From the UHGV virus genome UHGV-1421593: a stretch of DNA of 32,886 nucleotides; one strand, given 5' to 3'. Made by a program: the position numbers and the translations under genes. Under the pieces are notes generated by a model that saw nothing but the letters and a program-made list of their open reading frames with translations, made no database searches and was not told the origin of the DNA. Origin of the DNA: a virus. Below, in pieces: positions 7,187 to 14,130 of the stretch. Every line of letters starts with the position of its first letter. Position 1 is the stretch's first letter.

Positions 7187-8956
7187 TCATGGATAGTACA
7201 AATTTTTAAAGTGATTATTAATATCAACCATAGCATCAAGAATTGGTTTGAACAATGAAAAATCTATAGTCTGTCTATTTTCTCTGATAATATTGTTGGC
7301 AAACCTGTCTTTTCCAAAAGTAGTAGTGCTATCATGATTATTACTTTTATCAAAGGATTTACCGTTAATTGTCTTTGTCAGAACTTCATCTTTGAAAAAG
7401 TCTTCCATGCACGATTGTTTATCACCAGCCAATAGTGGAGTTAACAATACGTAGAGGTTATTCTCTAAATGTAAAAATTTATGTTTTCTTACGTCCTCTG
7501 ATTTTCTAGGCAGGTGAGAATATTCTTTGATTATATTATTAATAAAATCAGATGGCCCAGTGTCATTATCCAAAACAATTATTACTGGATTTTTAGGCGG
7601 TTGTCTTTCAAATTTCTTGCATTGTTCTCTATGCCTTCTAAAGAATCTTACATAGTCAGCAGCCCCACCGTAGAGGTCTAAAAAATATTCCTTTTTTGCG
7701 TTTGTTTTGAATAACGTAATATTTAAAATTCTATTCTTTGTTCTATCGTCAACTCTAACCAGAGCAGGATAACTTAAATACAAAGAATCAATTGCACATT
7801 TCAAATAAATTGGATCTGTTTTACCTTCTGTCAAAACTGTAGGCTTTATATTCCCATAAAAATACTTATAATGAAGAAAGTTACTGAATGCTGTCTCTCT
7901 TGAATTCAATTTGAGAGTAAAATTAATTCCAGTTTTCTTTAGCACATATTTTTCTGGGAGTGTATGTTTTTTAGCGTTAATGTTATTATACTTATCAAGC
8001 ATATCAATATAAACGAAGCGGCCTTCAAGTTCATTTAGAGTACCTTTTCGCGGTTTTCCACTAATATCCAAAAGGGTAAAATCCCCTTCTTTATAAAGTG
8101 CATGCGCCATAGCTCTGGTTTTTTTAATATAATCTTTATTGACATTTATTTTTTTGTTTACGGTTAAACCTGTTACTTCCTGCCTTGATGTATGCCGCAA
8201 TATTCTGGTCTTATTATTATTAATTTTAAATCCAGCTTTTTCAATTTCATTAACTAACAATGGTCCTAACTCGTTAGAATTCTCATTTATAACAATTGAG
8301 TCAGGAAACTGATTTTTGTTAGTTGAGAATGTTATATCATCTGCATATCGACTATAACTGCATCCATTAGAAAGTGCCAACTTTGACAATCTAATATCTA
8401 AAATATTACATATAAGATTGCTTATTACAGGAGAGCAAGGACTTCCTTGCGGAAGTTTTCCATCATAGCAAGCTATCTGCGCAATTATAGTTGCTATTGA
8501 TGGGTGCAAATTAAAATATTGATTCGCGATAAAATAACCACGGACCCTACCGAAATTAAATGTAGGGAAAAAATCCTCAAGATCAATATTTAAAACATTG
8601 GTTTTATTTCTATGTCTTTCTGCATTTGTTATTATTGTTTTATTTTTCTCAAATCCATGAGATAAGCTAGGGGTGATATTATTTGTTTTCCATATTTCGC
8701 TCTGACAAACATACAATAAATCTGATAAACGCCTTTGTATGTCTTTTAGTTTTTCAGTAGGCGCAAATATCTCTCTGTCACCTCCAGACTTCTTTTTTAT
8801 AATAAATCTTTCATATTGATGCTCAGGTCGTATTCTGTACAGGACATTAGTAAGAAAAGAAACTTTAATTTGAAGTAAGCGTGCAAACTCAAATTTGGTC
8901 TTGCATGACTTGAGTCTTTCTAAGTAGGAGGGAGTGAACATAATAGTAAATTCCAT
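7187..8956 (-). CDS. Retron-type reverse transcriptase with C-terminal Toprim domain (Retron-Eco2/Ec67-like architecture)
   Basis: RT motifs in order: GGDREIF...IQRRL (1/2), retron-specific NAxxH (TNAERH), LNIDLEDFFPTFN (A), QGSPCSPVISNL (B'), YSRYADDITFS (C, YADD), VTGL (retron VTG). C-terminal ~280 aa has Toprim signatures: TVLTEGKTDPIYL (Glu) and VIIVLDNDTGPSD (DxD). 589 aa. Confidence 0.88.
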   Translation of the reverse strand: MEFTIMFTPSYLERLKSCKTKFEFARLLQIKVSFLTNVLYRIRPEHQYERFIIKKKSGGDREIFAPTEKLKDIQRRLSDLLYVCQSEIWKTNNITPSLSHGFEKNKTIITNAERHRNKTNVLNIDLEDFFPTFNFGRVRGYFIANQYFNLHPSIATIIAQIACYDGKLPQGSPCSPVISNLICNILDIRLSKLALSNGCSYSRYADDITFSTNKNQFPDSIVINENSNELGPLLVNEIEKAGFKINNNKTRILRHTSRQEVTGLTVNKKINVNKDYIKKTRAMAHALYKEGDFTLLDISGKPRKGTLNELEGRFVYIDMLDKYNNINAKKHTLPEKYVLKKTGINFTLKLNSRETAFSNFLHYKYFYGNIKPTVLTEGKTDPIYLKCAIDSLYLSYPALVRVDDRTKNRILNITLFKTNAKKEYFLDLYGGAADYVRFFRRHREQCKKFERQPPKNPVIIVLDNDTGPSDFINNIIKEYSHLPRKSEDVRKHKFLHLENNLYVLLTPLLAGDKQSCMEDFFKDEVLTKTINGKSFDKSNNHDSTTTFGKDRFANNIIRENRQTIDFSLFKPILDAMVDINNHFKNLYYP

Positions 8957-9105
8957 TATTAATTATGTTATTGCACATGCAGGCACTCTTACGCATTTCA
9001 AAGTGACGCCCAAGAAGATCCGACGTCCGTCAGAGGCGAATACTGCCGACCTTTTAATCACTGATTGCGATACCACAACCAACAAATCTACCTGCATGTG
9101 CCTTG
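8957..9105 (-). ncRNA. Candidate retron msr-msd non-coding RNA locus
   Basis: 11-bp perfect inverted repeat (8973-8983 GCACATGCAGG / 9091-9101 CCTGCATGTGC) encloses 107 nt and ends 16 nt before the reverse transcriptase ATG, as retron a1/a2 repeats do. Exact msr/msd boundaries and branching G not determined. Confidence 0.3.
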
Positions 9106-9386
9106 CTAATTTATCATAGTTAACAATCAAAACAAGCACTTTTGAAAATGGCTGTATCTTATTGATTAACTAATCATGGTCAAAGCCGAACATTCCTCGT
9201 GAAGATTGTTAGAATTTGAGATCTTTACGAGCACTTAACAGACTGTCAGATTCAGTCATGGAGCAAGTTGAATGCAATGTTATCATGTATCACTTTTTCT
9301 TTTTCGTCGTTAAGATGGTTCATAAAACTTACCATTAAGTCGATTGATAACTAGTAATTACATCTGTAGGTTCTCTTGATGATTTG

Positions 9387-10127
9387 TCAGAGGGCATTTG
9401 AGCTAAATAAAGTTGATTCGACGAGTTCAATTGCTTCATCTTCGATAGTTGATTTGTCCATTGTTTTGGTCGGCTCAGAAATATCAATTTTCACAATTAC
9501 AATCTCGTCATCAAAAGATAGTTTTTCACCCCTTCTTTCTTTACGTAAAACGCTGTTCTCTTTGCTGAGTTCAGCGTTTTTCCTTTCTAACTCTGCGACT
9601 CTTTTCATCAAATCTTCCATTTTGGAATTCACAACATCTAGTCTCTGCTCAGTCGGAAATTCAATACTTTCGATGATTTCAATAAATTCACCAGTATACA
9701 TCTGAACAAACTGCTCGGTGTCTTTGATCTTCTGCATTCTTAGATCTGAACAGAAAGCTTTCCACGAGTTCTTTTTACCGTTAATTTCACAAGCAACGAT
9801 AACAGCATTATCGGTTGTATAAGCAACGATTGCAGGCAGATTATTAACTTCGGTCGTACCGATTTCGAAGCTATGCATATTTTTTACAGTCACAGCATTT
9901 TCAATCTTCTGTAACATCTTAGCTCGAACATTACGATGAATATCTATAGCTTTAACAAGAGCTTTCAGGCTGTTTTTGTTATTGGTCATTCTATTAACTT
10001 TGATAATATTTCTGTTCAGGCTTGCTTTAACTGTTCTGTCTAGATTTTCGAAGACTGCAAATTTGAAATTCAATTTATTTGCCTTTATTGATTGGTTGAG
10101 TTCTGATATTACGTTTTTTGCAAGCAT
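9387..10127 (-). CDS. Hypothetical protein with C-terminal coiled-coil
   Basis: 246 aa ORF on the cargo-island strand with coiled-coil segment MEDLMKRVAELERKNAELSKENSVLRKERR. True start may be an internal Met; overlaps the upstream small ORF by ~50 nt in another frame. Confidence 0.45.
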   Translation of the reverse strand: MLAKNVISELNQSIKANKLNFKFAVFENLDRTVKASLNRNIIKVNRMTNNKNSLKALVKAIDIHRNVRAKMLQKIENAVTVKNMHSFEIGTTEVNNLPAIVAYTTDNAVIVACEINGKKNSWKAFCSDLRMQKIKDTEQFVQMYTGEFIEIIESIEFPTEQRLDVVNSKMEDLMKRVAELERKNAELSKENSVLRKERRGEKLSFDDEIVIVKIDISEPTKTMDKSTIEDEAIELVESTLFSSNAL

Positions 10128-10233
10128 TATACATCGTTGCTTTATTCATTTGTTTAGATTCTGCAATTTGCTGAAATGTCTCACCAGAGTCTAAGCGAGA
10201 TTCAATTTCGAATTTGTTAGGTATAAATTTCAT
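10075..10233 (-). CDS. Small helix-turn-helix protein
   Basis: Start at internal Met (MKFIP). Helix-turn-helix-like segment GETFQQIAESKQMNKATMYNACKKR. May be the N-terminal part of a split gene with 9387-10127. Confidence 0.35.
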   Translation of the reverse strand: MKFIPNKFEIESRLDSGETFQQIAESKQMNKATMYNACKKRNIRTQPINKGK

Positions 10234-10245
10234 GGGGTTGCCTTT

Positions 10246-10282
10246 TTTATTGAATTGAAAAATAAGCACTCCGAAGAGTGCT
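10246..10282 (-). terminator. Candidate terminator hairpin (AGCACTC-cgaa-GAGTGCT) with U-tract on the minus strand
   Basis: 7-bp stem, 4-nt loop, followed on the minus strand by TTATTTTT, just upstream of the helix-turn-helix gene. Confidence 0.4.
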
Positions 10283-10483
10283 TTAAACTTAAGGAATTTT
10301 TAAATGAACTAAGCTAATTGCTTATATCTTATTTTATGACGGATAAAGTCAGTAGTAAACAAACGAGAGAAAATAACGAGGAAGAAGAAACTCTCTGTGT
10401 TCATACTAATATTTATATAGTTCACCGAAAGTGTAAACAAAGTCCGAAAAATAATTTAGTGAAAAGCAGGTGCATTGATGCAC

Positions 10484-10509
10484 ATCAAAACGCATCGATA
10501 ACGCATCGA
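10484..10509. promoter_or_regulatory. Tandem AACGCATCGAT x2 including 10-bp palindrome GCATCGATGC (operator-like)
   Basis: Direct repeat at 10485-10494 and 10496-10505; perfect palindrome at 10498-10507; related dyad GTGCATTGATGCAC just upstream. Confidence 0.3.
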
Positions 10510-10615
10510 TGCGACTCGGAGAAGTGCATGGACCCTAGAAAAAATCGCCCTATAAGAACAATTGGATAAAGATGAACTGGAAGGATATAGAAGCAGTACA
10601 AAACCTGGAAAACAT

Positions 10616-10757
10616 AGCGAAGCGAGCAGATTGCGCGAAGCGCGGGCGAAGCCCTAATTGATAAACATTAGCGCGAAGCGCGACAGATAACACTATCGAA
10701 CTTGATTACTAGCTACTGATTAGATGTTTCTAGATAAAGATTATTAGCGCTTCGCGC
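10616..10757. repeat. Cluster of GCGAAGC mini-hairpin motifs (4 direct, 1 inverted), including two GCGCGAAGCGCG copies and an inverted AGCGCTTCGCGCG
   Basis: GCGAAGC at 10617-10623, 10635-10641, 10645-10651 and 10673-10679; inverted GCTTCGC at 10747-10753, with another at 11083-11089. No ORF of 60 aa or more is credible here. Confidence 0.6.
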
Positions 10758-10959
10758 GTTCGCTACGCTCACAATATTATTTTTCAGATCTGGATAATAA
10801 TGATTACTGGATAACTGCATTATACTGTTCGTCTGACAATCAATAAACATAACGATCGATAATTAATTGAAATAACGTTAATGAGTTCTCCTTCGCTATC
10901 GCTACGTCGAACGGGCAAGCCCTATCTTTGATGATAGTAATGATTGACTGCTACATCAT

Positions 10960-11160
10960 CCCTCCTCGCTTCTCCCTGCTTCTACTGACCTAATGATACT
11001 CCAAGTCAATTCCCTGTTATCAAGTTCACCTGATGCTTCCTGCTTCGTTATCGACCTTATTGCTTTTGACTCTACGCTTTCAGCTTCGCAGGAAGTACGC
11101 CCTGCTGTTTGCAGATCGTTCTAAAGAACTGAGTAATCAAGTTCTCAACTATTTGATTCC
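10960..11160. repeat. Pyrimidine-rich (plus strand) non-coding segment with imperfect ~20-bp direct repeats (CCTGCTTC...GACC)
   Basis: CCTGCTTCTACTGACCTAATGAT (10972-10994) versus CCTGCTTCGTTATCGACCTTATTG (11037-11060). Strong strand-compositional skew by eye. Confidence 0.35.
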
Positions 11161-11220
11161 TTGCGCCCCAAAGATGCCTCCAGTATCTGTGGTTTACAAT
11201 CTACTCATTTGAAATTCAAT

Positions 11221-11243
11221 AAAAAAGGGAGCACTAAGCTCCC
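11221..11243 (-). terminator. Rho-independent terminator (GGGAGC-actaa-GCTCCC), A-run/T-run flanked, potentially bidirectional
   Basis: Perfect 6-bp stem. On the minus strand it is followed by TTTTTT directly after the stop of the 59-aa ORF. Confidence 0.6.
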
Positions 11244-11248
11244 TTTTG

Positions 11249-11428
11249 TCATTTCAGACCAAGCACTAATGCTTGTTCAAGTTTTTTCTCAAGCAGAGTG
11301 TTTAATCCACTTTCGAAAAATTCAATCGCTTGAACGTCTGAGTCTGTTTTTAAGCGAACAGCGGCATCGTCAACTGTTAACTCTTCGGTCTTAACATCAC
11401 CGTTTTTATAAACCACATTAGCAATCAT
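11249..11428 (-). CDS. Small protein (59 aa), unknown function; absent from the supplied ORF track
   Basis: ATG at 11428 preceded by AAAGGAGAAAGC (strong Shine-Dalgarno). Translation MIANVVYKNGDVKTEELTVDDAAVRLKTDSDVQAIEFFESGLNTLLEKKLEQALVLGLK; stop is followed at once by the terminator hairpin. Confidence 0.45.
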   Translation of the reverse strand: MIANVVYKNGDVKTEELTVDDAAVRLKTDSDVQAIEFFESGLNTLLEKKLEQALVLGLK

Positions 11429-11666
11429 GCTTTCTCCTTTGTTGCTAAAAAATAATAACCGAATGATATCACTTGTTCAATTTTTCTTTCAATCAAATAA
11501 GTATCCGATGAATAGTCGGCTCTCTAAACTAGCAGGTATGAAATAGTTCCTTAATTCTGAACTTCCTCACTTTGCTTCCTATTTAATATTGCAATTTTAA
11601 ATCTAGTGTAATTAATTTAGCTACAAACTTGCATTTATTATACATTTAAAAAATCGCCTCCATTCG

Positions 11667-12101
11667 TTAGGCATTCTCAGTTTCACTCATTTCTCCTTTA
11701 GTGCTATTCACACAGCGAAGAAACTGATCCCTCTGATACGCGGCAGTTTTGTCTGACATCTGTTTTTTGAATAACTCAAAATCCCCCTCTGTACGTTTAA
11801 AAATAATCATGCTAATCGCAGATGGTTTTTTATTAGCCGATTTGCTAGCAAGAAGTTTTTCGATGTTATCGAATCCGAAAGCCTGATTCACGATTCGTTG
11901 TGCTTCAACAGCATCGACAACTTCAACCGTATTTTCAGCTTTAACTTCTTCAACAACTGTATATTCCTCGATGTTAGCTTTAACACGACGAACAACAGAA
12001 CGAGGAACATCGTATTTTTCAGCAAGCTTACTCTCTGACATATCAGTACCAGCGTTTAATTCAGAAGCAATTCGGTTTTCAACAGTCAGTTCAGTTTTCA
12101 T
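11667..12101 (-). CDS. Helix-turn-helix DNA-binding protein (putative regulator)
   Basis: Start at Met (MKTELTV) with AGGAG Shine-Dalgarno 7 nt upstream. Helix-turn-helix segment SESKLAEKYDVPRSVVRRV. Divergent from the large terminase gene. Confidence 0.5.
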   Translation of the reverse strand: MKTELTVENRIASELNAGTDMSESKLAEKYDVPRSVVRRVKANIEEYTVVEEVKAENTVEVVDAVEAQRIVNQAFGFDNIEKLLASKSANKKPSAISMIIFKRTEGDFELFKKQMSDKTAAYQRDQFLRCVNSTKGEMSETENA

Positions 12102-12246
12102 TGTCGTTCTCCTGTGTTTTGTTGGAACAGACTTTAACAGGCGGATATCCAGGTGCAAGAACTCTTAGAAATAATTTTATGGAGGTTTTCATAAATACAG
12201 ACAGAGAAATGAAATCCATTTTGGGTTCATCCACTTAGGGCTGATT

Positions 12247-14130
12247 ATGAAAAACTCAAATAAACTGAAAAGTATCTTACAGAATGCAAAGCGCTTTTTA
12301 ATGCCACCTCCTGACTACACTCCGTCCGAGTGGGTCGAACAGTACCTGAAATTCCCTGATGGTCCTTATACAGGGCAGCCGATGAAACTGTTTGAGTTTC
12401 AGAAAGGCATGATTGACGTCATTAAAGAACGTAAGAAGAAAATCGTCTTCGAGACTTCTGCCCAGATTGGCAAGACAACCATCTTGAACGGAATTCTGTT
12501 CTATAAGTCTGCTACTGATCCCGGTAACGCTGGTGTCTTGCAGTCAACCGGTAAAGAGACGACTCAATGGCTATCAGGCAAGATTCGCCCAATGATTGAC
12601 GAATCGGAAGAAATGCAACGAATCGTCACCGACAAGAACGACAGAAACGCAGTGAATAACACCAGTCAAATTCAGCTACGTGCTGGAGGCTTTTGGTATT
12701 TCATGTCGCTCAATAGCCCTTCTCACTTACGCGGTAAAACTCTTCCGCTGATGTTGCTTGATGAAGTTGACGCAGTTGAAACAGACACAGAAGAAGGCAA
12801 CCCGATTATCATCGCGGAACAACGTGCTACGACGTTCGGTGAAGACGCTCGTGTTTTCATTAGCTCGACGCCTACAAGTAAATACGGTGCTATCCACACG
12901 CAGTATGAAGCATCCGACAAGCGCAAGTATCATGTTCCCTGTCCTACATGTGGTCATAAGCACGAACTGACGTGGGAGAATATCAAATTCGACTGGGTAA
13001 AAATCGATGGTAAATCATTACCTGATCCTAACTCTGCCAGAATTGAATGTCCTGAATGTCATCACGCTTTCTCTGAAGGCGACCGAGCACGAGCAATTAA
13101 ACAAGGTGAATGGATTATTCATCAACCTGAAAGTCGAATTGCTGGATTCCACGTAAGTCGTTTATACAGCCCAATGAGTTCTATCAAATCAGTTGTTGAA
13201 GACTATAAGCAAGCATGGCAAACGTTCAGCTTGTCAACGTTTTATAACACTGTTCTTGGTCTACCGTTTGATGATTTAAACGAAGACATTGAGGTTAGTA
13301 AATTAGAAACACTCAAGACGAATATCGGCATCAGCAATATACCAGAAGACACGTTGTTTTTAACCGCTGGGGTTGACCAACAGCAAGACCGTTTAGAAGT
13401 AACCTTGATGGGTCACAACGAACGAACCGTTTATATTCTTGCACATCGTAGCTTTATGACAATGAACGCTGAGGTTATCGATTCCCCTGCTTATAAAGAA
13501 CTTCTTGCATACGTTAAAGCACCGTTCAGAACAGCTTTGGGAAGAAAGGTTCCTTTAGCGTGGGTGAACGTCGATAGCTCAAACGGTCGAGCAACTAAAA
13601 CAATCTATCGTTTCTGCTCTCAGTGGACAAACCTGAAAGCAATTAAAGGTGCCAGCTCTGTTGATGCCCCTTATGTTCCAACGAAAATCACGAAAACCGG
13701 TGGTTATGAACTTTATATGATTGGTGTAAACCAAGGAAAAAACTTAGTTCGTGAACTGCTAAACAGAAGCGTGAAATCTGGAAATACACCAGTCAGAGTC
13801 GAAATCTCTGATGATGTTCCAGATGATTACTGCGAACAGCTTATGTCCGAAGAATTAAAACGCTCTGGTAATACTGTTAGATGGGTTATTAAACAAGGCG
13901 GTGTTCGTAACGAAGGTCTTGACTGCTTTAACTACGGTTATTGCGCGCGTCTGCAAGTTCTAGAGAAAATCAAATTTCACGAGTGGAGGAAACTCGCTGC
14001 TAAATCTGATATTGAAATGCCAGAAGAACAAAACGAAACAAATTCTCCTGTTATTCAAACTCATGAACCTCGTCGAAACATTATCAAACGAAACAGACCA
14101 GTTAATAAGCCTCGTGGTTTCGGATTATAA
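12247..14130 (+). CDS. Terminase large subunit, lambda GpA family
   Basis: Walker A (SAQIGKTT), Walker B-like LMLLDEVD, zinc-finger CPTCGH...CPECHH, nuclease-domain motifs LTAGVDQQQDRLEV and NEGLDCFNYGYCA colinear with lambda gpA. 627 aa. Confidence 0.92.
   Translation: MKNSNKLKSILQNAKRFLMPPPDYTPSEWVEQYLKFPDGPYTGQPMKLFEFQKGMIDVIKERKKKIVFETSAQIGKTTILNGILFYKSATDPGNAGVLQSTGKETTQWLSGKIRPMIDESEEMQRIVTDKNDRNAVNNTSQIQLRAGGFWYFMSLNSPSHLRGKTLPLMLLDEVDAVETDTEEGNPIIIAEQRATTFGEDARVFISSTPTSKYGAIHTQYEASDKRKYHVPCPTCGHKHELTWENIKFDWVKIDGKSLPDPNSARIECPECHHAFSEGDRARAIKQGEWIIHQPESRIAGFHVSRLYSPMSSIKSVVEDYKQAWQTFSLSTFYNTVLGLPFDDLNEDIEVSKLETLKTNIGISNIPEDTLFLTAGVDQQQDRLEVTLMGHNERTVYILAHRSFMTMNAEVIDSPAYKELLAYVKAPFRTALGRKVPLAWVNVDSSNGRATKTIYRFCSQWTNLKAIKGASSVDAPYVPTKITKTGGYELYMIGVNQGKNLVRELLNRSVKSGNTPVRVEISDDVPDDYCEQLMSEELKRSGNTVRWVIKQGGVRNEGLDCFNYGYCARLQVLEKIKFHEWRKLAAKSDIEMPEEQNETNSPVIQTHEPRRNIIKRNRPVNKPRGFGL

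What the first reader, a model, noticed from the sequence alone, without database searches (positions are those of the whole stretch)
10270..11248. Roughly 1-kb non-coding region with clustered GCGAAGC mini-hairpin motifs and iteron-like repeats
No credible protein gene occupies this interval. It contains four direct GCGAAGC copies within 65 bp (two embedded in GCGCGAAGCGCG), inverted copies at 10747-10753 and 11083-11089, a tandem AACGCATCGAT repeat with a perfect GCATCGATGC palindrome, and a pyrimidine-skewed segment with ~20-bp imperfect direct repeats. d(GCGAAGC) is known as an unusually stable DNA mini-hairpin reported at some phage replication origins. The interval lies just upstream of the large terminase gene and is bracketed on the minus strand by two terminator-like hairpins. 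Candidate roles are origin of replication, cos/packaging site, operator array or a structured non-coding RNA.
Basis: partly seen in the sequence, partly recalled or inferred. Interest (0 to 1): 0.65.

Follow-up and report, generated by a model that had tools for sequence, protein, structure and literature searches.

The report
Conserved ORF-free structured region in prophage
A 1-kb gene-free stretch of an E. coli prophage is conserved at the same spot in related prophages and most likely holds a large folded non-coding RNA, absent from Rfam, plus the promoters and terminators of the neighbouring operon; no transcript has been shown.

Summary
The motifs are real. GCGAAGC occurs 10 times in the window against about 3 expected, and 6 copies lie in the interval. 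No protein frame is conserved.

The window is a ~35-kb E. coli prophage between ybiT and ldtB. The interval lies in a minus-strand island that separates terS from terL. I found homologous ORF-free regions in 10 further lineages (Enterobacter, Citrobacter, Kluyvera, E. coli; 55-83% identity).

The interval has three parts:
- 11083-11248: remnant of a deleted gene plus a terminator.
- 10487-11089: conserved core. It folds far better than shuffles on the minus strand. Its small hairpins and one 380-nt-range helix show compensatory changes.
- 10255-10483: a palindrome, two conserved sigma70-like promoters and a leader terminator before a small HTH operon, which here also carries an Ec67-type retron.

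Best reading (about 0.45): the gene of a ~0.7-kb structured RNA, not in Rfam, followed by a promoter/terminator control region. The GCGAAGC motifs are its hairpins and helix arms. The window's copy has lost the upstream promoter that 8 of 10 relatives keep.

An origin, a cos site or a purely DNA-level operator region are less supported but not excluded. No expression data exist.

The parts
11223..11247 (.). Hairpin AAAAGGGAGC/GCTCCCTTTT flanked by A- and T-runs. It is the intrinsic terminator of the 59-aa minus-strand gene (11249-11428). It bounds the interval and is not part of the conserved element.
   Evidence: (I16)
11083..11212 (+). Remnant (about 43 codons) of the 3' end of a 184-aa gene that is intact in relative L043. 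The deletion junction lies at the CGAAG microhomology, 11083-11089.
10487..11089 (-). Conserved ORF-free core, the candidate structured RNA body. In the window it lacks its 5' end and its promoter. The 5' half is purine-rich and the 3' half pyrimidine-rich.
10959..10980 (-). Purine block AGCAGGGAGAAGCGAGGAGGGA, invariant in 4 of the 5 lineages compared. It contains helix arms Y (10975-10967) and Z (10965-10959).
10579..10585 (-). Z' (UCCUUCC), the partner of Z across about 380 nt. Pairs go G-C to G.U to A-U across lineages.
10518..10526 (-). Y' (CACUUCUCC here, CGCUUCUCC in most relatives), the partner of Y. This helix is weaker (73% of cells paired).
10913..10922 (-). Hairpin H1 (GGGCUUGCCC in RNA sense), directly 5' of the conserved GUUCGACGUAGCG...GAAGGAGAACUCA unit. 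Its third pair is G-C in 5 and C-G in 5 distinct sequences.
10633..10681 (-). Cluster of GC hairpins: GCGCUUCGCGC (10633-10643 and 10671-10681) and GGGCUUCGCCC (H2, 10644-10654).
10747..10757 (-). GCGCGAAGCGC, an 11-nt perfect complement of either GCGCUUCGCGC copy. The pair is predicted in every lineage that has it.
   Evidence: (I10, I11)
10487..10513 (-). T1: hairpin GCAUCGAU-GCGUU-AUCGAUGC followed by U4-5. It looks like an intrinsic terminator on the minus strand. On DNA it is the AACGCATCGAT tandem repeat.
10470..10483 (.). 14-bp palindrome GTGCATTGATGCAC, the third GCATCGATGC-type site. Centres of the three sites are 20 and 11 bp apart. It is a possible operator.
10408..10437 (-). P1: promoter-like TTTACA-N16/18-TAAATA. 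The TTGTTTAC and TAAA words are conserved while the spacer varies.
10331..10359 (-). P2: promoter-like TTTACT-N17-TAAAAT. TTGTTTAC is invariant in all 11 lineages and the spacer varies.
10255..10325 (-). Leader or short RNA from P2, ending in terminator T2 (stem 10283-10264, cUUCGg loop, U-run to about 10255). T2 lies 30 nt before the HTH start codon. The word UUCCUUAAGUUU (10301-10290) equals the antisense of the homing-endonuclease RBS in relatives.
10075..10233 (-). 52-aa HTH gene, the first gene of the operon served by P1/P2. It is a flanking gene, not part of the interval.

Best explanation
The interval is a composite of three parts.

(1) 11083-11248 is debris. It holds the terminator of the upstream 59-aa gene and the tail of a gene lost in a ~1.7-kb deletion.

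(2) 10487-11089, read on the minus strand, is a copy of a conserved ORF-free element of about 0.65-0.75 kb. The element sits at the same place in at least 10 other prophage lineages of Enterobacteriaceae. I think it most likely is the gene of a large structured non-coding RNA.
- In 8 of the 10 relatives a TTGACA promoter-like site points into the element from next to a divergent homing-endonuclease gene.
- The purine-rich 5' half pairs with the pyrimidine-rich 3' half: Z:Z', GCGCGAAGCGC:GCGCUUCGCGC, and AGCGAAGCGA:UCGCUUCGCU.
- Small GC hairpins cap the structure.
- The transcript ends at intrinsic terminator T1.

(3) 10255-10483 is the control region of the downstream operon. The operon encodes the HTH protein, a ~228-aa coiled-coil protein, here an Ec67-type retron, and a Zn-ribbon protein. 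The control region has a palindromic site, two tandem sigma70-like promoters and a ~65-nt leader. The leader ends in terminator T2, only 30 nt before the start codon, so expression of the operon must depend on read-through of T2.

Shown: conservation, absence of coding frames, hairpin and helix covariation, and the positions of promoter-like and terminator-like signals.

Inferred: that the core is transcribed, that it acts as RNA, and what it does. My guess is an RNA regulator or scaffold tied to this accessory island, in the manner of the long non-coding immunity leaders of P4/P1 or the large phage RNAs of unknown function.

The window's own copy lacks the upstream promoter and the first ~30 nt. 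It may be expressed only by read-through, or be partly disabled.
For: - Conservation without coding. The ORF-free gap between the HTH gene and a GIY-YIG/NUMOD3 endonuclease gene recurs in all relatives. Blocks of up to 35 nt are invariant although overall identity (55-83%) is near that of third codon positions (58-70%). No small ORF is conserved.
- Fold potential. The minus strand gives z = -4.6 to -6.9 in three lineages, the plus strand -1.3 to -4.3. Coding controls of equal length give about 0.
- Alignment-level test. The consensus fold is 5 sd below column-shuffled alignments.
- Local hairpins H1, H2, T1 and T2. They are 95.9% paired, with a covariation score of 0.132 against 0.065 and 0 of 500 shuffles as high. 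Slid controls are 27-40% paired.
- Long-range helix Z:Z'. All 7 core pairs form in 10 lineages. Two pairs go G-C to G.U to A-U. Single-sequence folding predicts the helix at p = 0.6-1.0 in 6 lineages, including the covarying ones. The G.U intermediates fit only the minus sense.
- Terminators. T1 (hairpin plus U4-5) is present in 10 of 11 lineages. T2 (hairpin plus U5-7) is present in 11 of 11 with three different stems and UUCG or GCAA loops on the minus sense.
- Promoters. P1 and P2 keep their hexamers while the spacers vary. TTGACA-N18/19-TACACT is found in 8 of 11.
- Synteny. A non-homologous 1.4-kb ORF-free region at the same position in L006/L007 is also strongly structured, z = -4.8 to -7.0.
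- Precedent. Phage ICP1 makes an ~800-nt transcript from a 1-kb ORF-less gap (PMC7567579).
Against: - There are no expression data of any kind.
- Whole-region RNAalifold on 5 sequences gave a net unfavourable covariation term of +10.55.
- The column-shuffle test is equally strong on the plus strand, -5.2. Most of the conserved structure is local, symmetric hairpins, which ssDNA or cruciforms would also form.
- I located Z' partly by its complementarity, so its statistics (16 of 500) are biased upward. Helix Y:Y' holds in only 73% of cells.
- The lineages are few and related.
- The upstream promoter has a long 18-19-nt spacer. It is absent in the window, L002 (TTGACT variant) and L030.
- T1 doubles as two 11-bp direct repeats plus a palindrome, and could be protein sites.
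- The central domain is swapped or duplicated between lineages, and homing-endonuclease genes sit inside or beside the element. A loosely constrained spacer would also allow that.
Confidence: 0.45

Rival explanations
1. DNA-level regulatory region only. On this reading the conserved blocks are binding sites for the flanking HTH/GntR-like proteins and host factors. They would control the divergent endonuclease gene and the HTH operon, and any transcript of the body would be incidental.
For: - Three GCATCGATGC-type palindromes lie 20 and 11 bp apart, just upstream of P1.
- The word TTGTTTAC is invariant at both promoters.
- DNA-binding proteins are encoded on both sides.
- GC palindromes such as GCGC-GAA-GCGC could be dimer sites.
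- Structure signals are equal on both strands in the column-shuffle test.
Against: - About 600 nt of conserved sequence upstream of the promoters is far more than known operator arrays need.
- Stems change by paired substitutions (G-C to C-G, G-C to U-A) and loops vary. That preserves pairing rather than a protein's sequence readout.
- The Z:Z' partners lie 380 nt apart and change together through G.U.
- Single-sequence fold z-scores are stronger on the minus strand.
Confidence: 0.2
2. Origin of replication. Hairpins extruded on single strands would act as priming or assembly signals, as in G4 oric or the RSF1010 ssiA/ssiB sites. Alternatively, a transcript from the region would prime DNA synthesis, as ColE1 RNA II does. 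Either would serve a prophage that has no recognisable initiator.
For: - The ~35-kb element has no recognisable replication genes.
- GAAGC-type motifs lie on the + strand in the left half and on the - strand in the right half.
- d(GCGAAGC)-class mini-hairpins occur at phage and plasmid priming sites (PMC13037366).
- Hairpin potential is conserved on both strands.
- The syntenic region of L006 carries about 2.5 copies of a 19-nt direct repeat.
- The G-rich 5' half of the RNA would favour R-loops (inference).
Against: - There are only two 11-nt tandem copies and no iteron array.
- No DnaA boxes or AT-rich unwinding element are conserved. TTATCCAGATCT is deleted in relatives.
- There is no adjacent Rep, primase or helicase gene.
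- Promoter and terminator signals account for the left third.
- The G.U path in Z:Z' is strand-specific.
- Large insertions are tolerated: a GIY-YIG gene in L031/L039 and domain swaps.
Confidence: 0.15
3. cos/packaging site. The GC-rich palindromes would be the nicking site and the repeated motifs the terminase-binding sites. They lie between terS and terL, next to a cargo hotspot.
For: - TerL is of the lambda gpA type.
- The interval lies between terS (6132-6680) and terL.
- Variable defence cargo (the retron here, other genes in relatives) sits nearby, as it does beside cos in 186/P2-like prophages (PMC6868368).
- GCGCGAAGCGCGGGCGAAGCCC is a GC-rich stretch with partial dyad symmetry.
Against: - Relatives with 75%-identical TerL (L006, L007) share no similarity and no 13-mer or longer with the whole terS-terL interval.
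- cos sites are about 0.2 kb, not 0.7-1 kb.
- Two minus-strand genes, plus an endonuclease cluster in relatives, separate the interval from terL.
- L004 has replaced one of the GC palindromes.
- No contig ends fall here.
Confidence: 0.1
4. Relic carried along with the homing endonuclease, or a duplication scar. On this reading the region has little function of its own. Conservation would reflect recent spread and gene conversion by the endonuclease.
For: - A GIY-YIG/NUMOD3 gene abuts the region in 10 of 11 lineages, and a second endonuclease gene is inserted in two.
- Direct repeats of 7-16 nt flank the region, namely the endonuclease RBS and the leader.
- The window lineage lost the 5' end without obvious loss of the rest.
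Against: - Lineages are 17-45% diverged yet keep invariant blocks and paired substitutions.
- The region is present once per genome and is not a repeat family.
- A non-homologous but equally structured region occupies the same place in L006/L007.
Confidence: 0.07

Closest known systems
Large phage-associated non-coding RNAs of unknown function: GOLLD, ROOL and the ~800-nt ICP1 transcript
   Same: - A 0.6-0.8-kb ORF-free, strongly structured element carried by phages or prophages.
- It lies in a ~1-kb gene-free gap near late or lysis genes.
- Peripheral domains vary around conserved cores (PMC12286853, PMC5737381, PMC7567579).
   Different: - It shows no similarity to GOLLD, ROOL, OLE or any other Rfam 15 family.
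- There is no tRNA neighbourhood.
- The host is Enterobacteriaceae.
- Transcription is not shown, and covariation support is far thinner than for those families.
RNA-based immunity leaders of P4 (CI RNA with seqA/B/C) and P1/P7 (c4 RNA)
   Same: - A long non-coding leader region holds internal complementary words. One GCGCGAAGCGC faces two GCGCUUCGCGC.
- Terminators lie ahead of an operon.
- The element has no recognisable CI-type repressor.
- A short promoter-to-terminator RNA is complementary to the RBS of another gene.
- The description of the P4 and P1 systems is from my own knowledge.
   Different: - There is no match to the Rfam C4 family.
- The complementary words here lie within one putative RNA body, not between a processed small RNA and downstream targets.
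- Processing and termination control were not tested.
ssDNA hairpin priming signals: G4 oric, RSF1010 ssiA/ssiB, N4 hairpin promoters
   Same: GC stems are capped by GAA-type triloops (GCGAAGC, GGCGAAGCC). The motifs sit on opposite strands in the two halves (PMC13037366).
   Different: - Those signals are 40-100 nt and act in elements with a single-stranded stage or a dedicated primase or RNA polymerase.
- None is encoded here.
- The hairpins here are embedded in long-range pairings and sit between a promoter-like site and a terminator.
Lambda-type cos site (cosQ-cosN-cosB)
   Same: The terminase is of the gpA family. GC-rich, partly symmetric sequence and repeated short motifs lie in the terminase neighbourhood.
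   Different: - The region is 3-5 times larger than a cos site.
- It is not adjacent to terS or terL.
- It is not conserved with related terminases.
- No DNA ends have been mapped.

Membership tests
Any Rfam 15 family (including GOLLD, ROOL, OLE, HEARO, C4, group I/II introns, retron msr) | Covariance-model score at or above the family's gathering threshold | tested here: not met
   - The whole window gave 0 hits.
- The interval at E<=5 gave only terminator-driven sub-threshold hits, the best being TarB at 29.9 bits against a gathering score of 80.
- Nine related loci gave no hit in the homologous regions.
Structured non-coding RNA (generic criteria) | No conserved protein-coding frame | tested here: met
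   PGAP annotates nothing here.
Structured non-coding RNA (generic criteria) | Base pairs maintained by compensatory substitutions | tested here: met
   - Four local hairpins score 0.132 against 0.065, with 0 of 500 shuffles as high.
- The Z:Z' helix goes G-C to G.U to A-U (16 of 500).
- The support is modest: there are few, related lineages, and I chose Z' partly by its complementarity.
Structured non-coding RNA (generic criteria) | Own promoter and terminator bracketing the element | tested here: inconclusive
   - Terminator T1 is present in 10 of 11 lineages.
- A TTGACA-N18/19-TACACT site is present in 8 of 11 but is absent from the window, where it was deleted.
- These are consensus matches only.
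Structured non-coding RNA (generic criteria) | A detectable transcript | not testable with these tools
   No expression data are available.
Intrinsic (Rho-independent) terminator: T1 and T2 | GC-rich hairpin directly followed by a U-run on the transcribed strand | tested here: met
   T2 keeps its position with three unrelated stems.
Iteron-type replication origin | An array of 3 or more 17-22-bp direct repeats beside an AT-rich unwinding element and a Rep gene | tested here: not met
   There are only 2 x 11 nt in tandem. No Rep, primase or helicase was found in the element.
cos site of gpA-type terminases | Sequence conserved among phages with closely related terminases and placed next to the terminase genes | tested here: not met
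   L006 and L007 (TerL 74-75% identical) share nothing in this interval. The interval is 1 kb and two genes away from terL.
cos site of gpA-type terminases | Virion DNA ends map to the site | not testable with these tools
   This needs virion DNA sequencing.
d(GCGAAGC)-type ssDNA mini-hairpin signal | Motif present and enriched | tested here: met
   (10 observed against 2.98 expected, 6 of them in the interval)
d(GCGAAGC)-type ssDNA mini-hairpin signal | Acts on single-stranded DNA and is recognised by a primase or polymerase | not testable with these tools
   No such enzyme is encoded in the element. The biochemistry cannot be tested here.
MITE / IS-derived element | Many copies per genome, with conserved terminal inverted repeats | tested here: not met
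   There is one place per genome in 7 of 5426 E. coli genomes. The 21-nt inverted repeat 10241-10261 / 11208-11228 is not conserved in L043.
Retron non-coding RNA (msr-msd) | Lies directly upstream of the RT, with a1/a2 inverted repeats | tested here: not met
   The retron's own msr-msd candidate is at 8973-9101. Relatives that lack the retron keep the interval.

The most novel reading that the evidence does not exclude
The core is a previously undescribed family of large (~0.7 kb) structured RNAs of enterobacterial prophages, found in E. coli, Enterobacter, Citrobacter and Kluyvera.
- Its modular fold would be built from GAA/UUC-capped GC hairpins and long-range purine-pyrimidine helices.
- It would act as an RNA-level controller. 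Candidate roles are immunity, anti-termination, replication priming or protein sequestration.
- Its setting is a small prophage that lacks a recognisable repressor and replication genes.
- A non-homologous but equally structured counterpart in sister phages would mean that the role is conserved although the sequence is not.
Probability: 0.3. Interest if true: 0.7.

Novelty: new variant of a known kind. Interest (0 to 1): 0.5.

Why it matters
Large structured bacterial RNAs are few (OLE, GOLLD, ROOL, HEARO/omega RNA, raiA), and most live in organisms that are hard to work with. A ~0.7-kb candidate in E. coli and Enterobacter prophages could be tested directly by Northern blot or RNA-seq, structure probing, deletion and complementation.

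It sits in an accessory island that splits terS from terL. That island collects defence cargo (a retron here) and homing endonucleases, so the element's function may bear on how such islands are regulated. The prophage has no recognisable repressor or replication module, so it may also bear on how such a prophage is controlled.

If the element proves to be a cos site or an origin, that would also help annotate this unstudied phage group.

Tried and rejected
- DNA searches of the interval and of 9 kb around it against INPHARED phages found nothing. A tblastn of the coiled-coil protein also found nothing.
- Exact-word scans of GTDB species genomes found nothing. A chance 19-mer hit (L017) was discarded.
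- tRNA/tmRNA scan: none.
- Group I/II intron, retron msr and C4 readings were rejected by Rfam.
- Pseudogene reading for the core was rejected. No frame survives in any of 11 lineages. The reading holds only for 11083-11212.
- Invertible-segment or MITE reading, based on the 21-nt inverted repeat. Relatives are collinear, the repeat is not conserved, and there is one copy per genome.
- The small ORF MNWKDIEAV... (10572, + strand) loses its start codon in L030 and its length varies.
- Whole-region RNAalifold on 5 sequences was uninformative.
- A naive all-against-all search for compatible helices was too noisy to use, beyond showing 46 helices on the minus sense against 20 on the plus sense.
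- nhmmer and k-mer comparison with the syntenic L006/L007 region found no homology.
- The AlphaFold model of the neighbouring ~228-aa protein was too poor (pLDDT 57) for fold search.
- CsrA-sponge idea (many GGA motifs in the purine half): considered but not tested. The purine richness alone could explain the motifs.
Full report
**Observation**

The sequence features are present.
- GCGAAGC occurs 10 times in the window on both strands, against 2.98 +/- 1.54 in dinucleotide-preserving shuffles. No shuffle reached 10.
- Six copies lie between 10617 and 11089: four direct copies at 10617-10679 and inverted copies at 10749-10755 and 11083-11089.
- The AACGCATCGAT tandem, the GCATCGATGC palindrome, the pyrimidine-rich 11-nt repeats and the two bracketing hairpins are also there.
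- The left half is purine-rich and the right half pyrimidine-rich on the + strand.
- GAAGC words sit on the + strand at 10590-10675 and on the - strand at 10749-11083.
- No ORF longer than 83 aa exists.

**Context**

The window is 100% identical to a chromosomal segment of E. coli 2021CK-01361 and 99.9% to E. coli MS 115-1.
- The element is a ~35-kb prophage between ybiT and ldtB. It has a serine integrase at one end, lambda-gpA-type TerL, a lambda-family portal, a protease-capsid fusion and tail genes. It has no recognisable repressor or replication genes.
- A phrog_57 small terminase gene (6132-6680, +) is separated from terL (12247, +) by a 5.5-kb island read entirely on the minus strand. 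In order, the island holds a GntR-like gene, a 59-aa gene, the interval, a 52-aa HTH gene, a coiled-coil gene, an Ec67-family RT-Toprim retron and a Zn-ribbon gene.
- RefSeq annotates nothing in the interval.
- Nothing similar exists in 50,697 phage records.

**Relatives**

I collected homologous regions through TerL, exact DNA words and the two neighbouring proteins. They come from IMG/VR, metagenomes and genomes of E. coli, Enterobacter hormaechei and E. kobei, Kluyvera and Citrobacter.
- There are 11 lineages with pairwise identity of 55-83% in this region, plus a few closer pairs.
- In every one, a ~1-kb stretch without a called or conserved ORF lies between the HTH gene and a divergent GIY-YIG/NUMOD3 homing-endonuclease gene. 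The window is the exception, because it has lost the endonuclease gene.
- Two lineages carry a second endonuclease gene inserted between T1 and P1.
- The retron is absent from all lineages except the window's, so it is unrelated to the interval.
- Overall identity (about 69% window against L002/L004) is close to that of third codon positions in neighbouring genes (58-70%). It is very uneven: blocks of 9-35 nt are invariant in four of the first five lineages compared, and eight words of 7-11 nt are invariant in all five, including the most distant, L030.

**The right end is debris**

- Window 11063-11222 matches L043 674-811 at 87%. That stretch is the 3' end of a 184-aa gene on the opposite strand.
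- The + strand of 11083-11212 still translates to RRKYALLFADRSKELSNQV..., which matches that protein's C-terminus.
- Relative to L043, the window lineage has deleted about 1.7 kb. The deletion took the rest of that gene, two small genes, the endonuclease gene, the promoter-like site and roughly the first 30 nt of the conserved element.
- The junction is a CGAAG microhomology, which created the GCGAAGC at 11083-11089.
- The 21-nt inverted repeat that seems to bracket the interval is not conserved in L043. It mostly reflects two T-run terminator flanks.

**The left third is a promoter-leader region (minus strand)**

- Two units, TTGTTTAC-N16/17-TAAATA (P1) and TTGTTTAC-N17-TAAAAT (P2), keep their words while the spacers differ between lineages.
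- P2 is followed by a ~65-nt leader ending in T2. T2 is a strong hairpin with a U5-7 run in all 11 lineages.
- T2 has three unrelated stem sequences, one compensatory pair (A-U to G-C), and UUCG or GCAA loops on the minus sense.
- T2 ends 30 nt before the HTH start codon. There is no room for another promoter, so the operon must depend on read-through.
- Upstream of P1 lie three GCATCGATGC-type palindromes. The first two also form T1, an 8-9-bp hairpin followed by U4-5 in 10 of 11 lineages. In L030 both arms carry A-to-G changes that remain paired as G.U.

**The core (10487-11089, minus strand)**

- Single-sequence folding gives z = -4.7, -4.6 and -6.1 on the minus strand in three lineages, against -1.3, -3.4 and -4.3 on the plus strand.
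- The full interval gives -6.9 against -2.6.
- Three coding segments of the same length give -0.7 to +0.25.
- An 11-lineage alignment of the conserved 5' and 3' blocks has a consensus fold 5.4 sd (minus sense) and 5.2 sd (plus sense) below column-shuffled alignments. Structure is therefore conserved, but this test does not choose a strand.
- Four small hairpins are 95.9% paired and have three compensatory pairs: H1 G-C to C-G in 5 of 10 distinct sequences, H2 G-C to U-A, and T2 A-U to G-C. Their covariation score was exceeded by 0 of 500 shuffles. Slid controls are 27-40% paired.

**Long-range pairing**

- Independent folds of each lineage repeatedly pair the invariant purine block with pyrimidine words about 380 nt downstream.
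- Helix Z:Z' is GGAGGGA with UCCUUCC in most lineages. It becomes UUCUUCC in L037 and L030 and UUCUUUC in L044, giving G.U pairs. In L039/L041 it is GAAAGAACC with GGUUCUUUC, all Watson-Crick.
- The three G's that became A are exactly those facing U. All seven core pairs form in all 10 lineages that have the segment.
- On the opposite strand the intermediates would be A.C mismatches. This is the main argument for the minus sense.
- I chose Z' in part by complementarity, so the shuffle statistics (16 of 500) are optimistic.
- Other recurrent helices are GCGCGAAGCGC with either GCGCUUCGCGC copy, (ACAU)AGCGAAGCGA with UCGCUUCGCU(AUGU), and CAGUAAA with UUUACUG. Helix Y:Y' is less consistent (73% of cells).
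- The GCGAAGC motifs are thus the caps and arms of these hairpins and helices.
- The central domain differs between lineages. The unit 'GC hairpin + GUUCGACGUAGCGAAGCGAAGGAGAACUCACUAAC' is duplicated in L030 and L037.

**Upstream signal**

In 8 of the 10 relatives a TTGACA-N18/19-T(A/T)CACT site points into the core, and its spacer varies between lineages. It lies about 40 nt from the divergent endonuclease start. The spacer is long for sigma70. The window, L002 (TTGACT variant) and L030 lack a clean match.

**Synteny without homology**

In L006 and L007 (TerL 74-75% identical) the same position holds a 1.4-kb ORF-poor region with no detectable similarity.
- It too folds far better than shuffles, z = -4.8 to -7.0.
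- It is rich in GC hairpins with GAA, UUCG or UUC caps, contains about 2.5 copies of a 19-nt repeat, and is followed by an endonuclease gene of the HNH type.
- A long structured non-coding region therefore seems to be a positional feature of this phage group.

**Interpretation**

- The most economical reading is an RNA gene (promoter-like site, ~0.7-kb structured body, T1) followed by the control region of the HTH operon.
- The function is unknown. I favour a regulatory or scaffold RNA tied to this island.
- The copy in the window has lost its promoter and 5' tip, so its expression is doubtful.
- The rivals remain open because no transcript, DNA end or initiation site can be observed with these tools. 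They are a DNA-only operator region, a hairpin- or transcript-primed origin, a cos site, and an endonuclease-linked relic.
- The origin idea gains from the absence of replication genes and the strand-symmetric motif layout. It loses from the absence of iterons, an unwinding element and a Rep gene.
- The cos idea gains from the position and the cargo hotspot (compare Ec67/Ec86 beside cos in 186-like prophages, PMC6868368). It loses from the size of the region and the lack of any conserved core in phages with related terminases.

**Comparison with known systems**

- No Rfam 15 family matches.
- In kind, the element resembles the large phage RNAs GOLLD and ROOL and the ~800-nt ICP1 transcript (PMC12286853, PMC5737381, PMC7567579).
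- In layout, it resembles the non-coding immunity leaders of P4 and P1. That comparison rests on my own knowledge.
- It is a member of none of these.

**Verdict**

This is a real, conserved, structured non-coding locus and a plausible new large RNA family. It is supported by modest covariation and signal logic only. Interest is moderate (0.5).

Noticed in passing
window 7187-9101 (-): There is an Ec67-family RT-Toprim retron (type I-C; NF038237 E = 5e-213). A candidate msr-msd lies directly upstream, bounded by the inverted repeats GCACATGCAGG (9101-9091) and CCTGCATGTGC (8983-8973). The retron is present only in the window's lineage.
   Followed up: partly
window 6787-6999 (-) and 9387-10073 (-): The 70-aa ORF downstream of the retron is homologous to the FmdB-type Zn-ribbon. 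In relatives that ribbon is the C-terminus of, or the gene right after, the coiled-coil protein. The retron therefore appears inserted inside the HTH / coiled-coil / Zn-ribbon operon. The coiled-coil gene probably starts at TTG 10073 (MNFKFAVFENL...), not at the listed ATG.
   Followed up: partly
window 11083-11212 (+); L043 674-2508: There is a remnant of a 184-aa gene. A ~1.7-kb deletion removed the homing-endonuclease cluster in the window's lineage. The junction is at a CGAAG microhomology.
   Followed up: yes
window 10290-10301 (-); L002, L004, L044 and others: The leader word UUCCUUAA(A)GUUU just 5' of T2 is identical over 7-16 nt (13-16 in L002, L004 and L044) to the antisense of the endonuclease gene's ribosome-binding site 1 kb away. 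L030 has a different but mutually similar pair. This is either antisense control of the endonuclease by the short P2-T2 RNA or a duplication scar.
   Followed up: partly
window 6132-12247: terS and terL are split by a 5.5-kb minus-strand island that carries variable cargo. The cargo is the retron here and three unrelated + strand genes in L002/L004. A terminator follows terS at about 6690-6712.
   Followed up: partly
L031 7057-7767; L039 3431-4099; L040 3433-4101: A second, GIY-YIG-like endonuclease gene is inserted inside the non-coding region, between the T1/palindrome and P1, in two lineages.
   Followed up: partly
L006 7902-9376; L007 about 5130-6553: A non-homologous 1.4-kb ORF-poor, strongly structured region occupies the syntenic position. 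It has about 2.5 copies of GAAATGCAATTTCTGAACC and is followed by an HNH endonuclease gene directly upstream of terL.
   Followed up: partly
window 4925-5821 (+): There is a TIR-domain protein (PADLOC PDC-S35, Pfam CAP12-PCTIR_TIR) preceded by a YuaX-like small protein. It is a likely second defence gene on the prophage.
   Followed up: no
window 5940-6040 (+): Upstream of terS there is a C-rich run, the hairpin GAAACACCGAGATGTTTC and a GAGCGCTCGGCTTTTTT terminator-like element. They are partly conserved even in L006/L007. This could be a late-promoter/terminator unit or the packaging site.
   Followed up: no
whole element (L036 3865-38726): The ~35-kb prophage between ybiT and ldtB has RcGTA-like tail genes (DUF2163, Gp84_N). 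It has no recognisable repressor, replication or holin genes. In some strains it is hit by IS elements: IS5 in terL of 2021CK-01361 and IS3 in the capsid gene of 2017.06.05CC.
   Followed up: no
L030 and L037, RNA-sense core: The ~55-nt unit (GC hairpin + GUUCGACGUAGCGAAGCGAAGGAGAACUCACUAAC) is present twice. L043, L031 and L044 carry a degenerate second copy.
   Followed up: no
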